Source of the DNA: Escherichia coli
GTDB lineage: Bacteria; Pseudomonadota; Gammaproteobacteria; Enterobacterales; Enterobacteriaceae
Assembly (NCBI RefSeq): GCF_051903065.1
Contig: NZ_CP178442.1
Strand: one strand, 5' to 3'
Length of the DNA: 37,672 nucleotides
Part shown: one piece after another, positions 13,826 through 14,780 of the stretch
How the letters are laid out: every line of letters begins with the position of its first letter
Numbering within the stretch: position 1 is the stretch's first letter
The notes under the pieces: generated by a model
The model's database searches: none
Seen by the model: only the letters and a program-made list of their open reading frames with translations
Told to the model about the DNA's origin: nothing
Program-made: the position numbers and the translations under genes

Positions 13826-13841
13826 GCACTTTTAAGAGTGC
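13826..13841. promoter_or_regulatory. imperfect palindrome gcacttttaagagtgc upstream of stbD (putative autoregulatory operator/promoter region)
   Basis: Dyad symmetry with one mismatch about 40 bp upstream of the stbD start, followed by a tattat -10-like hexamer. Confidence 0.35.
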
Positions 13842-13883
13842 TTTTAAAGATGCTATTATGCCAATGAGACAAGCGGAGGGCTT

Positions 13884-14135
13884 ATGAGCTATCAAATTCT
13901 GACAACCACAGCGGCCAGTATTACTGACCTGAAAAAAAATCCTATGGGAACCGTAGCTGAAGGTGAAGGGGACGCTGTTGCGATCCTGAACCGAAACGAA
14001 CCGGCGTTCTATTGCGTTCCACCAAAACTTTACGCCTACTATCGGGAACTCGCTGAAGATGCTGAGTTAAACGCTGTTGCTGATGAGCGCATGAAAAACC
14101 CGGAAATTGTGAAGGTTAACCTGGATGACCTATGA
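13884..14135 (+). CDS. stbD: type II antitoxin, Phd/YefM-StbD family
   Basis: 83-aa acidic protein directly upstream of and overlapping (11 nt) a RelE/ParE-type toxin gene; RBS gcggaggg. Confidence 0.75.
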   Translation: MSYQILTTTAASITDLKKNPMGTVAEGEGDAVAILNRNEPAFYCVPPKLYAYYRELAEDAELNAVADERMKNPEIVKVNLDDL

Positions 14136-14406
14136 ACTGGCTTTTGACCGCAGAGCACTGAAGGAATGGCAGAAACTCGGCCACACCATCCGTGAACAAT
14201 TCAAAAAGAAACTGGCAGAACGGCTGGAAAATCCACGCGTACCCGCAGCCCGGTTACATGGTCATGCTGATCGCTATAAAATCAAACTTCGTGCATCTGG
14301 CTACAGACTTGTATATCAAGTCATTGATGAGAAAGTCGTTTTACTTGTTATTGCCGTTGGAAGAAGGGAAAGCAGCGAAGTCTATCAGATCGCAGATATG
14401 CGCTGA
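14125..14406 (+). CDS. stbE: type II toxin, RelE/StbE (ParE superfamily) mRNA interferase
   Basis: 93-aa basic protein with RelE-like C-terminus (RASGYRLVYQVIDEKVVLLVIAVGRRESSEVY); overlaps antitoxin gene. Confidence 0.75.
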   Translation: MTYELAFDRRALKEWQKLGHTIREQFKKKLAERLENPRVPAARLHGHADRYKIKLRASGYRLVYQVIDEKVVLLVIAVGRRESSEVYQIADMR

Positions 14407-14429
14407 ATTTTTTAGAGAGTGTTGTGGAA

Positions 14430-14780
14430 ATGGCATATGACGAAAATGTGAAGTCGCAGAAAAATCATTATCCGGCAGCCGTTGAGCACAACGCCGCCAT
14501 GATTGAAGAACTACGTGCAGATCCTGATTATGCAAATGCTTATCTTGCTAATGCCCTGGAAGAAATAAACGAGCCTGGTGGTTTAGGTGGTTTTCTTGTT
14601 GCGCTACGTCAGGTAATCGAGGCGCGAGGGGGGATTTCCGAAGCTGCCAGGAAATCTGGCCTTGCCCGTCAGAGTATTTACCGCGCATTATCCCCCAACG
14701 GTAACCCGACCATCACAACGCTTGCACAACTTACATCGGTAGCCGGATTACAGTTCACTCTCAGTAAATCCAGCCACTAA
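14430..14780 (+). CDS. HTH DNA-binding protein resembling HigA-type addiction-module antidote proteins
   Basis: 116 aa from ATG 14430; C-terminal HTH-like segment GISEAARKSGLARQSIYRALSPNGNPTITTLAQLTSVAGLQF; located 24 bp downstream of stbE. Followed by hairpin ttccccc-taagc-gggggaa (14790-14808). Confidence 0.55.
   Translation: MAYDENVKSQKNHYPAAVEHNAAMIEELRADPDYANAYLANALEEINEPGGLGGFLVALRQVIEARGGISEAARKSGLARQSIYRALSPNGNPTITTLAQLTSVAGLQFTLSKSSH

What the first reader, a model, noticed from the sequence alone, without database searches (positions are those of the whole stretch)
13826..14780. Three-gene arrangement: StbD antitoxin - StbE/RelE toxin - HigA-like HTH antidote protein
A canonical Phd/YefM-type antitoxin and a RelE/ParE-type toxin are followed only 24 bp later, on the same strand, by a third gene encoding an HTH protein with the C-terminal signature seen in HigA-type antidote proteins. 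Those normally pair with their own upstream toxin, so here the toxin gene is flanked by two different putative antitoxins. This could be a tripartite TA, a transcriptional regulator coupling the TA to the neighbouring establishment genes, or an orphan antitoxin providing anti-addiction against related TA systems.
Basis: inference. Interest (0 to 1): 0.5.

Follow-up and report, generated by a model that had tools for sequence, protein, structure and literature searches.

The report
Orphan antitoxin left beside swapped-in StbDE
On this IncX4 resistance plasmid, a complete StbD/StbE toxin-antitoxin operon has replaced the toxin half of an older toxin-antitoxin pair, so the third gene is that pair's leftover antitoxin and not a third StbDE component; it probably gives immunity to the toxin of sibling plasmids.

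Summary
stbD (13884-14135), stbE (14125-14406) and a 116-aa HTH gene (14430-14780) lie on one strand, with 23 nt between stbE and the HTH gene. The window is a complete 37,672-bp IncX4 plasmid of the pSD11 type.

The HTH protein belongs to the HI1420 "addiction module antidote" family (Pfam PF21716). In 154 PLSDB plasmids, including ordinary IncX4 plasmids at the same backbone position, a 94%-identical protein is encoded 4 nt overlapping its own upstream HI1419-type RelE/ParE toxin. In the window, that toxin, its promoter and two palindromic putative operators have been replaced by the IncX1/R485-type stbDE operon.

The same stbE-HTH junction occurs in 34 PLSDB plasmids and on other IncX backbones. 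In 24 further plasmids an unrelated toxin/XRE-antitoxin pair made the same replacement at different breakpoints, again keeping the HTH ORF intact.

StbDE occurs without the HTH gene in about 900 plasmids. A sibling plasmid carries an IS91-disrupted HTH gene with stbDE intact. The locus is therefore not a tripartite TA.

The best reading is an orphaned antitoxin, co-transcribed with stbDE, that protects against the HI1419-type toxin of incompatible sibling plasmids. The origin is shown; the function is inferred. This is an ordinary kind of element with an unusually clear evolutionary history.

The parts
13741..13776 (.). Left recombination arm. This short stretch is shared by IncX4 two-gene plasmids and IncX1 stbDE plasmids.
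   Evidence: Homology to the IncX4 two-gene plasmid L002 runs up to 13776. Homology to IncX1 L005/L006 starts at 13741/13740. The 36-nt overlap is where the left crossover must lie.
13819..13859 (+). stbDE promoter-like site (-35 TTAAGA at 13832, extended -10 TG-TATTAT ending at 13859) overlapping an inverted repeat AAGCACT/AGTGCTT. This is the putative StbD/StbDE operator.
   Evidence: Consensus scan and inverted repeat 13819-13833/13834-13848. The whole segment comes with the IncX1-type cassette. Function is inferred.
13884..14135 (+). stbD antitoxin gene (83 aa)
   Evidence: ORF. It is 100% nt identical to IncX1 stbD and is the same RefSeq protein, WP_000121743.1. Weak PF02604 Phd/YefM match (i-E 0.0088). 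Weak YafN and RelB C-terminal matches.
14125..14406 (+). stbE toxin gene (93 aa, RelE/StbE family)
   Evidence: TIGR02385 at 39.4 bits against a cutoff of 27.9. PF05016 at E 3.8e-14. 98.2% nt identity to IncX1 stbE, and the protein is identical to that of pFORC51.
14407..14442 (+). Fusion junction: 23-nt spacer plus the first 13 nt of the HTH ORF. This sequence is found only in stbDE+HTH modules.
   Evidence: IncX1 homology ends at 14404-14407 and IncX4 two-gene homology resumes at 14443. The same junction occurs in L007-L010 on other IncX backbones and in 34 PLSDB records. No terminator-like site lies between stbE and the HTH gene.
14430..14780 (+). Orphan HI1420-family HTH antitoxin gene (116 aa)
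   Evidence: PF21716 at E 1.7e-10. Residues 20-116 are identical to the antitoxin that overlaps an HI1419 toxin in IncX4 plasmid L002, and all 7 differences lie in residues 1-19. The AF2 model has pLDDT 90, with residues 1-19 at low confidence (no secondary structure), two helices at 20-44 and an XRE-type HTH at 51-104. No HI1419 toxin is found anywhere in the window.
14792..14806 (+). Short G/C hairpin (CCCCC-TAAGC-GGGGG) 12 nt after the HTH stop codon. It is a possible weak end of the transcription unit.
   Evidence: Read directly from the sequence. It was not called by the terminator scan because there is no T-run. The three-gene module shared with L009/L010 ends at 14825, just past it.

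Best explanation
The locus is a chimera of two unrelated type II toxin-antitoxin modules that occupy the same backbone slot in IncX plasmids, between the replication origin and the J-domain/leading-region genes.

The resident IncX4 module is toxin-first. It has a promoter with two palindromic operators, an HI1419-type RelE/ParE toxin of 111 aa, and a 4-nt-overlapping HI1420-type HTH antitoxin of 116 aa.

In the window's lineage, recombination replaced the promoter, the operators, the toxin gene and the 5' end of the antitoxin gene. The left crossover lies in the shared stretch 13741-13776. The right crossover lies inside the HTH gene, between codons 19 and 41. What came in was the self-sufficient IncX1/R485-type stbD-stbE operon, already joined to the HTH gene in the donor.

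The HTH gene is therefore an orphan antitoxin. It has lost its toxin, its promoter and its operator, and is most likely transcribed by read-through from the autoregulated stbDE promoter.

StbD alone neutralises StbE; the HTH protein is not part of that system. My inference is that the orphan is kept because it still neutralises the HI1419-type toxin made by sibling, incompatible IncX4 plasmids. It would have been needed at the moment the recombinant segregated from its toxin-bearing parent. After that it would give an asymmetric advantage: cells left with this plasmid survive the rival's post-segregational killing, whereas cells left with the rival are exposed to StbE.

Where the toxin is no longer met, the orphan decays, as the IS91 insertion and the truncated remnants in IncX3 show.

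Shown: the chimeric structure, the breakpoints, the cognate partner, recurrence and dispensability. Inferred: co-transcription, trans-neutralisation and the competitive benefit.
For: Identity of the window: IncX4 plasmid of the pSD11 type.

Native pair:
- Ordinary IncX4 plasmids L002/L003 carry a 111-aa toxin plus a 116-aa HTH at the same slot.
- The toxin scores 103.7 bits against TIGR02683 upstrm_HI1419, above the cutoff of 62.85.
- The pair is complete in 154 PLSDB records.
- More distant HTH homologues (59-74% identity; Serratia and Pantoea genome contigs, Cedecea chromosome) are all preceded by a Gp49/HI1419-type toxin.

Breakpoints: 13776 and 14443 against L002. IncX1 stbDE matches 13741-14404/7. 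IncX1 has no third gene.

The HTH protein differs from the cognate antitoxin only in residues 1-19, which the model predicts at low confidence with no secondary structure.

The HTH is an orphan in this plasmid:
- No HI1419 toxin is found in the window.
- The putative operators TGTCACTT(TA/AT)AAGAGACA (L002 2585-2602 and 2618-2635) are absent from the window.

Recurrence:
- The same stbE-HTH junction occurs on other IncX backbones at 91-95% nt identity with an intact ORF, and in 34 PLSDB records.
- An independent replacement by a different RelE-like/XRE pair, with different breakpoints (L002 2571/3031), again keeps an in-frame HTH ORF with a new start codon. This form occurs in 24 records.

Not a StbDE component:
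- stbDE without the HTH gene occurs in about 900 plasmids.
- IS91 splits the HTH gene in pESBL2057-IncX4 while stbDE stays intact.
- StbD and the HTH protein share no similarity.

Selection: dN/dS of the HTH gene among three-gene loci is 0.12-0.19.

Where the toxin is met: in complete E. coli genomes the cognate toxin is plasmid-only, in 149 of 5426 genomes with 0 chromosomal places.

Published concepts:
- TA-mediated plasmid-plasmid competition was measured for StbDE and HicAB (PMC11878559).
- Antitoxin-only invaders are predicted by theory (PMC3415908).
- Curing vectors that neutralise addiction systems displace resident plasmids (PMC6961859, abstract).
- An orphan hipB beside a higA/relE pair was proposed to inhibit competing mobile elements (PMC11541004).
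Against: - No experiment or structure shows that this protein neutralises the HI1419-type toxin. The seven substitutions are in the N-terminal tail, and in some HigA-like antitoxins that region is the toxin-binding part (from memory: Vibrio cholerae HigA2).
- In the window's own lineage the HTH gene served as the right-hand homology arm of the exchange. Its presence here could therefore be a mechanical by-product and not the result of selection.
- The dN/dS values are confounded by ongoing recombination with two-gene alleles. The window's stbD is 100% IncX1-like and its HTH residues 20-116 are 100% IncX4-like.
- Knock-outs and frameshifted copies exist, so any benefit is conditional.
- Co-transcription and adequate translation of the HTH gene are unverified. 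The Shine-Dalgarno sequence is weaker than in the native overlapped arrangement.
- StbDE had only a modest effect in competition assays on an IncI2 plasmid (PMC11878559).
Confidence: 0.6

Rival explanations
1. Passive relic. The HTH gene is a functionless leftover. It survived because recombination used it as a homology arm and because too little time has passed for it to decay.
For: - The window's right crossover lies inside the HTH gene.
- Residues 20-116 are identical to the IncX4 two-gene allele, which suggests a recent exchange.
- An IS91-disrupted copy exists, as do frameshifted variants.
- About 950 IncX3 plasmids carry only a C-terminal remnant, aa 67-116.
Against: - Two independent illegitimate replacements, with different breakpoints, both left an intact, in-frame ORF with a new start codon.
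- The stbE-HTH junction persists across backbones that differ by 5-9% nt, with the ORF intact and dN/dS of 0.12-0.19.
- On an IncX1-type backbone (L009 compared with L006) the HTH segment is an extra ~590 bp after stbE. There it was either gained or kept against the majority state.
Confidence: 0.25
2. The HTH protein has a second job as a DNA-binding regulator of the plasmid itself, for example copy-number control by binding the origin iterons or control of the leading-region genes. Under this reading, that role is why it is retained whenever the toxin is swapped.
For: - The gene sits next to the origin.
- The six 22-bp iterons (12604-12969, core ACCATAAATCTGTCCCCT) contain TGTCCC(C)TTT. This resembles the half-site TGTC(A/T)CTTT of the putative native operators.
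- There is a precedent: the antitoxin PrpA binds iterons and sets copy number (PMC7848731).
Against: - The resemblance is a 5-nt half-site, with a chance of about 3% per iteron (my estimate).
- No full palindrome occurs anywhere in the window.
- PrpA belongs to a different family (PF03693).
- The IS91 knock-out plasmid and the IncX3 remnants show that the gene is dispensable.
- In two-gene plasmids the operator motif occurs only in front of the pair's own toxin.
Confidence: 0.1
3. Genuine three-component TA. The HTH protein is a second antitoxin or regulator for StbE.
For: - The gene follows stbE closely on the same strand with no terminator between them.
- StbE and the HI1419 toxin share a RelE/ParE-type local similarity, 11 of 36 identities.
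Against: - StbDE functions and spreads as a two-gene unit in about 900 plasmids. StbD-StbE binding and neutralisation were shown for a StbDE pair on IncI2 (PMC11878559).
- The HTH gene's cognate toxin belongs to another family.
- A natural HTH knock-out has stbDE intact.
- The same HTH gene also follows a different, complete TA pair in L011.
- StbD and the HTH protein share no similarity.
Confidence: 0.04

Closest known systems
HI1419/HI1420-type (Gp49-like RelE/ParE toxin + HTH 'antidote') type II TA pairs; TIGR02683/TIGR02684, Pfam PF05973/PF21716
   Same: The third gene is a member of the antitoxin half by profile match. A 94%-identical protein is paired with a bona fide TIGR02683 toxin at the same slot of sibling IncX4 plasmids.
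   Different: In the window the toxin, promoter and operators are gone and a heterologous TA operon sits in their place. The curated TIGR02684 cutoff is not reached (44.6 against 53.7 bits). Sequence searches and a Foldseek search with the predicted model found no closely related solved structure for this antitoxin family.
StbD/StbE of IncX1 plasmids (R485, pOLA52, pECTm80)
   Same: stbD is 100% and stbE 98% nt identical, with the same RefSeq proteins, the same promoter region and the same position next to the replication origin (PMC3332091).
   Different: In IncX1 the operon ends at the stbE stop codon and unrelated sequence follows. In the window it is fused to the HI1420-type gene.
Anti-addiction modules and orphan antitoxins: chromosomal ccd of Erwinia against F ccd (from memory: Saavedra De Bast 2008), orphan hipB beside higA/relE in plasmid leading regions (PMC11541004), and antitoxin-carrying pCURE curing vectors (PMC6961859)
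   Same: An antitoxin gene without its toxin is carried by a replicon that meets the toxin on a competing element. The proposed role is protection from post-segregational killing and help in displacing the rival.
   Different: In the window the orphan's origin can be reconstructed base by base as a toxin replacement within one incompatibility group. It also rides on the transcript of the incoming TA. Neutralisation is untested.
Three-component TA systems: paaR-paaA-parE, omega-epsilon-zeta, pasABC and HigBA-SecB (TAC), all recalled from memory
   Same: Three adjacent same-strand genes include a toxin, an antitoxin and a DNA-binding or accessory protein.
   Different: In those systems the third gene is co-conserved with the pair and acts on it. 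In the window the third gene belongs to a different TA, is absent from most stbDE loci and can be knocked out.
PrpT/PrpA (PMC7848731)
   Same: A plasmid antitoxin encoded next to an iteron origin, which is a possible reason to keep an antitoxin.
   Different: PrpA is PF03693, not HI1420. Iteron binding by the window's HTH protein is only a weak sequence hint.

Membership tests
RelE/StbE toxin family (TIGR02385; Pfam PF05016) | Profile score above the curated cutoff | tested here: met
   39.4 bits against a cutoff of 27.9. PF05016 at E 3.8e-14.
RelE/StbE toxin family (TIGR02385; Pfam PF05016) | Encoded immediately downstream of, and overlapping, a small antitoxin gene | tested here: met
   stbD 13884-14135 overlaps stbE 14125-14406 by 11 nt.
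RelE/StbE toxin family (TIGR02385; Pfam PF05016) | Ribosome-dependent mRNA cleavage, with toxicity relieved by StbD | not testable with these tools
   Only indirect evidence: StbE toxicity and StbD neutralisation were reported for a StbDE pair on an IncI2 plasmid (PMC11878559). I did not check identity to that pair.
Phd/YefM antitoxin family (PF02604), for StbD | Significant profile match to the Phd/YefM fold | tested here: inconclusive
   PF02604 i-E 0.0088 at 16.2 bits. NCBIfam gives only sub-threshold hits to the DnaT N-terminus, YafN and the RelB C-terminus.
HI1420-type antidote (TIGR02684 / PF21716) | Profile match | tested here: met
   PF21716 at E 1.7e-10 over residues 36-110. TIGR02684 at E 1.3e-11, but 44.6 bits is below the curated 53.7. 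So Pfam is met and the NCBIfam equivalog cutoff is not.
HI1420-type antidote (TIGR02684 / PF21716) | Encoded directly downstream of an HI1419/Gp49-type toxin | tested here: not met
   In the window the upstream gene is stbE (TIGR02385) and no HI1419 toxin exists anywhere. The feature is met for the 94%-identical protein in L002/L003/L004 and for distant homologues.
HI1420-type antidote (TIGR02684 / PF21716) | C-terminal XRE/Cro-type helix-turn-helix domain | tested here: met
   The AF2 model has pLDDT 90 with helices at 51-104. Foldseek finds only generic HipB, HigA and C-protein HTH domains with E above 0.1.
HI1420-type antidote (TIGR02684 / PF21716) | Binds and neutralises its toxin; represses its own operon | not testable with these tools
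   The putative operators were identified only by position and symmetry in two-gene plasmids.
Three-component (tripartite) TA system | The third gene is co-conserved with the toxin-antitoxin pair | tested here: not met
   stbDE matches 958 PLSDB records but the junction to the HTH gene occurs in only 34. The IncX1 operon ends at the stbE stop codon.
Three-component (tripartite) TA system | The third gene is required for the pair to be tolerated or regulated | tested here: not met
   A natural IS91 insertion splits the HTH gene while stbDE stays intact in pESBL2057-IncX4. This is indirect evidence; there is no phenotype data.
Orphan antitoxin / anti-addiction module | An intact antitoxin gene with no cognate toxin on the same replicon | tested here: met
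   Intact 116-aa ORF. tblastn with the cognate toxin finds nothing in the window at E up to 10.
Orphan antitoxin / anti-addiction module | The cognate toxin is present on elements that the carrier meets or competes with | tested here: met
   154 PLSDB plasmids carry the pair, including IncX4 plasmids with a 97% nt-identical replication region. In E. coli the toxin occurs only on plasmids, in 149 of 5426 genomes.
Orphan antitoxin / anti-addiction module | Neutralises the toxin in trans and prevents post-segregational killing | not testable with these tools
   Residues 20-116 are identical to the cognate antitoxin and the differences are confined to residues 1-19. No functional data exist.

The most novel reading that the evidence does not exclude
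IncX plasmids have a 'TA slot' next to the origin that evolves by succession. An incoming complete TA operon replaces the resident toxin, but the resident antitoxin cannot be discarded, because recombinants without it die when they segregate from the parent.

The result would be plasmids that carry a new weapon plus immunity to the old one. This would produce non-transitive, colicin-like competition among incompatible resistance plasmids, and these plasmids would act as natural 'curing' plasmids able to displace siblings without killing the host.

Two observations would be the first natural record of this ratchet, which theory predicts (PMC3415908). The first is the pair of independent replacements, by stbDE and by a RelE/XRE pair. 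The second is the reciprocal hicB remnant in two-gene plasmids.
Probability: 0.35. Interest if true: 0.6.

Novelty: new member of a known kind. Interest (0 to 1): 0.38.

Why it matters
IncX4 plasmids are major carriers of resistance genes; this one carries cfr. Which plasmid lineage wins inside a host depends partly on toxin-antitoxin warfare.

If the orphan antitoxin works as proposed, this lineage is immune to the killing system of its two-gene siblings while imposing StbE on them. That would be a natural version of the engineered curing-plasmid strategy. It would also be a concrete, easily tested example of the antitoxin-retention step that theory on TA-mediated plasmid competition predicts.

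There is a practical point for annotation. A toxin flanked by two antitoxin-like genes can be a recombination scar, so such loci should not be called tripartite systems without comparing sibling replicons.

Tried and rejected
- Sequence searches of the PDB with the HTH protein and with a 68-sequence profile found no meaningful relative. Foldseek with a confident AF2 model gave only generic XRE HTH matches at E above 0.1. No structural homologue could say which part binds the toxin.
- The search for related loci with the family alignment failed because no stretch was conserved enough. I therefore could not build a paired toxin/antitoxin alignment.
- I considered an AF2 run on linker-fused toxin-HTH and StbE-HTH constructs.
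- I searched the window for the putative native operator, strictly and with relaxed patterns, and found nothing. The half-site enrichment near 12.6-13.0 kb turned out to be the origin iterons, which I kept only as a weak rival idea.
- I tested whether the 35-nt junction is a diverged remnant of the HI1419 toxin's 3' end. The spacing and the position of the ATG are equivalent, but identity is only about 50-70% in A/T-rich sequence. No two-gene ancestor with the MAYDEN N-terminus was found in PLSDB. The question is undecided.
- The Rfam scan of the window found nothing in or near the locus.
- I folded the 300-nt repeat downstream as ssDNA. The z-scores were only -1.7 and -2.4, and I did not pursue it.
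- I checked whether two-gene IncX4 plasmids are the epidemic mcr-1 carriers. The two that I opened carry no mcr-1, so I make no such claim.
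Full report
**1. What is there**

The window is a complete 37,672-bp plasmid. It is 100% identical over the queried stretch (13600-15000) to E. coli plasmids of the same 37,672-bp length: pSD11 (NZ_KM212169), NZ_CP069135 and NZ_CP069136. PLSDB types pSD11 as IncX4, MOBP, conjugative.

Three ORFs lie head to tail on the + strand:
- stbD, 13884-14135, 83 aa.
- stbE, 14125-14406, 93 aa, overlapping stbD by 11 nt.
- An HTH gene, 14430-14780, 116 aa, after a 23-nt spacer.

StbE scores above the curated cutoff for TIGR02385 RelE_StbE (39.4 against 27.9 bits) and matches PF05016 at 3.8e-14. 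StbD is only weakly Phd/YefM-like (PF02604, i-E 0.0088). It is nevertheless the very protein (WP_000121743.1) annotated in IncX1 plasmids, whose stbDE is the R485 type (PMC3332091).

The third protein matches Pfam PF21716 (dnstrm_HI1420, "probable addiction module antidote protein") at 1.7e-10. It matches TIGR02684 at 1.3e-11, although 44.6 bits is under the curated 53.7.

A sigma-70-like site (13832-13859) overlaps an inverted repeat (13819-13848) 25 nt upstream of stbD. No terminator-like site separates stbE from the HTH gene.

**2. The HTH gene has a partner, but not in this plasmid**

A tblastn search of PLSDB with the HTH protein found 93-94%-identical proteins whose genes overlap a "RelE/ParE family toxin".

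In IncX4 plasmids pMB6980_2 (L002) and pHNAH212872-3 (L003), the same backbone position holds a two-gene, toxin-first module. That position lies between the replication initiator/origin and the J-domain gene. The module is a 111-aa toxin whose stop codon overlaps (ATGA) the start of the 116-aa HTH gene.

The toxin scores 103.7 bits on TIGR02683 (upstrm_HI1419; cutoff 62.85), which is the family defined as the partner of HI1420. The complete pair is present in 154 PLSDB plasmids.

More distant relatives of the HTH protein (59-74% identity) are each preceded by a Gp49/HI1419-type toxin. These come from Serratia and Pantoea genome contigs and a Cedecea chromosome. In complete E. coli genomes this toxin gene is found only on plasmids: 156 places, 149 of 5426 genomes, none chromosomal.

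In the window, tblastn with the toxin finds nothing at E up to 10. The HTH gene is therefore a true orphan here.

**3. How the arrangement arose**

Against L002, the window is collinear and 97-98.6% identical except for 13777-14442. Homology stops at 13776 and resumes at 14443, which is 13 nt inside the HTH ORF.

The 627 bp missing from the window contain three things: two near-identical palindromes, TGTCACTT(TA/AT)AAGAGACA, 33 bp apart just upstream of the toxin start (putative operators/promoter); the toxin gene; and the first codons of the antitoxin gene.

In their place is the IncX1-type stbDE operon. IncX1 plasmids L005 and L006 match window 13741/13740 to 14404/14407 at 97.5-98.4% (98.4% and 97.5% respectively) and then diverge completely. 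They have no third gene. The window's stbD is 100% nt identical to IncX1 stbD.

The stretch 13741-13776 is shared by both plasmid types and is the left crossover zone.

On the right, the window's HTH residues 1-19 are of the three-gene type (MAYDEN...H13, A17, E19), while residues 20-116 are identical to the two-gene IncX4 allele. The right crossover was therefore homologous and lay inside the HTH gene. The donor already carried stbDE fused to the HTH gene.

That fusion is older and has spread. The same stbE-HTH junction, with small variations, occurs on other IncX backbones that have different Rep proteins and only 78-79% identical J-domain genes. Identity over the 1.1-1.2-kb module is 91-95%. 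On one of these, an IncX1-type backbone, the HTH segment is an extra ~590 bp right after stbE compared with its close relative. In PLSDB, 34 records contain the junction.

**4. It happened more than once**

IncX4 plasmid pDETEC49 (L011) has, at the same slot, a different complete toxin-first pair: a 109-aa RelE/ParE-like toxin plus a 93-aa XRE antitoxin. Elsewhere this pair is widespread as a two-gene unit. In L011 it is followed 14 nt later by the HI1420-type gene (108 aa, new N-terminus MSKTDYP...).

The breakpoints against L002 are 2571 and 3031. This differs from 2386 and 3014 for the stbDE form, so the event was independent. Twenty-four PLSDB records carry this form.

Both replacements removed the operators, promoter and toxin. 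Both kept an intact, in-frame antitoxin ORF with a fresh start codon in the N-terminal tail. The AF2 model predicts that tail at low confidence with no secondary structure (block-mean pLDDT 55 for residues 1-10 and 73 for residues 11-20; overall pLDDT 90; helices at 20-44, XRE HTH at 51-104).

**5. What the HTH gene is not**

It is not a component of StbDE:
- stbDE matches 958 PLSDB plasmids, and in 893 of them the match ends at the stbE stop codon, against 34 records with the junction.
- pESBL2057-IncX4 (L012) is a window-type plasmid with an IS91-family element inserted at about 14596-14598 inside the HTH gene, and its stbDE is intact.
- StbD and the HTH protein share no similarity.
- StbE and the HI1419 toxin share only an 11/36 local match.

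It is unlikely to be a cis regulator here. The putative operator is absent from all 37.7 kb, even with a relaxed pattern and a mismatch allowed. In two-gene plasmids the operator occurs only in front of the pair's own toxin.

**6. Most likely mechanism**

Shown: a chimeric operon in which an orphan HI1420-type antitoxin follows a self-sufficient stbDE.

Inferred: the orphan is read through from the stbDE promoter. It still binds the HI1419-type toxin, because residues 20-116 are unchanged.

Such a gene is what one expects to survive a toxin replacement on an addictive plasmid. A recombinant that lost the antitoxin would be killed as soon as it segregated from its toxin-bearing, incompatible parent.

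Afterwards the carrier would be immune to the siblings' post-segregational killing while its own StbE punishes cells that keep only the sibling.

This is the logic of TA-mediated plasmid competition, for which several lines of published work exist:
- It was measured for StbDE and HicAB (PMC11878559).
- It was modelled, including antitoxin-only invaders and rock-paper-scissors dynamics (PMC3415908).
- Curing vectors that neutralise addiction systems exploit it (PMC6961859).
- It was proposed for an orphan hipB next to a higA/relE pair in a plasmid leading region (PMC11541004).

dN/dS of 0.12-0.19 among three-gene loci agrees with constraint. However, it is confounded by recombination with two-gene alleles.

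**7. Caveats and rivals**

In the window's own lineage the HTH gene was the homology arm of the exchange, so its presence here alone does not prove selection. The recurrence argument rests on the older fusion and on the independent L011-type event.

Knock-outs, frameshifted copies and the C-terminal remnant (aa 67-116) in about 950 IncX3 plasmids show that the gene decays when it is not needed.

A passive-relic reading keeps about 0.25.

A second DNA-binding role keeps about 0.1. It rests on a half-site resemblance between the origin iterons and the putative operator, on the PrpA precedent (PMC7848731), and on a possible role in controlling the neighbouring genes.

A true tripartite TA keeps about 0.04.

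**8. Novelty**

All parts belong to known families, and the idea of orphan antitoxins as anti-addiction devices is established. The genes are annotated, without interpretation, in many GenBank records.

What appears undescribed in the papers I could search is the reconstruction itself: a TA slot in IncX plasmids where complete TA operons have twice replaced the resident toxin while the resident antitoxin was retained.

I rate it a new member of a known kind, of moderate interest, with a cheap decisive experiment (toxin rescue and plasmid competition).

Noticed in passing
window 14999-15298 and 17079-17378: A perfect 300-nt direct repeat of non-coding DNA. Each copy lies just upstream of a same-strand gene of the presumed leading region (the J-domain gene at 15420 and an ORF near 17456). 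Related copies occur in other IncX plasmids. As ssDNA it folds only moderately better than shuffles (z -1.7 on the + strand, -2.4 on the - strand). It might be an ssi/Frpo-like single-strand promoter element.
   Followed up: partly
window 14945-14980: A perfect 36-bp palindrome (TGTTAATGCTAATGTATGCATACATTAGCATTAACA) about 165 bp downstream of the HTH gene. It is conserved at 100% in L002, L003, L011 and L012. Its function is unknown.
   Followed up: no
window 4529-4746 (- strand): An Rfam match to RF02452, 'Bacillus sRNA ncr1575', at 110.7 bits (gathering score 60), on an E. coli plasmid. It lies immediately downstream of cfr (4846-5901, - strand; NF011024, 648.6 bits) between IS6-family transposase genes. 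It presumably arrived with the cfr segment from a Gram-positive source.
   Followed up: partly
window 18547-19139; locus L018 25490-25687: The window carries an intact hicA-hicB pair. The two-gene IncX4 plasmid pGF66.2-D has only a partial hicB pseudogene and no hicA at the corresponding place. This is a second case in this plasmid family where an antitoxin remnant outlives its toxin, and it is reciprocal to the HI1419/HI1420 situation.
   Followed up: partly
L011 1889-2821 (NZ_CP116078, pDETEC49): An independent variant of the same slot. A different RelE/ParE-like toxin (109 aa) plus an XRE antitoxin (93 aa) replaced the HI1419 toxin, followed by the HI1420-type gene with a new N-terminus. 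It occurs in 24 PLSDB records.
   Followed up: yes
L012 598-2700 (NZ_MW390511, pESBL2057-IncX4), equivalent to window ~14596-14598: An IS91-family insertion splits the HTH gene in an otherwise window-type plasmid. This is a natural knock-out that could be used directly in competition experiments.
   Followed up: yes
IncX3 plasmids, e.g. NZ_MN276080 7-156 (hits H35-H67): About 950 PLSDB records, mostly ~46-kb IncX3-size plasmids of Klebsiella, E. coli and Enterobacter, carry an unannotated remnant encoding only residues 67-116 of this HTH protein at 88% identity.
   Followed up: no
window 12604-12969: Six 22-bp iterons of the origin (core ACCATAAATCTGTCCCCT), plus two exact 17-bp repeats at 12809-12825 and 12835-12851. 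The iteron core contains a sequence resembling the half-site of the putative HI1420 operator.
   Followed up: partly
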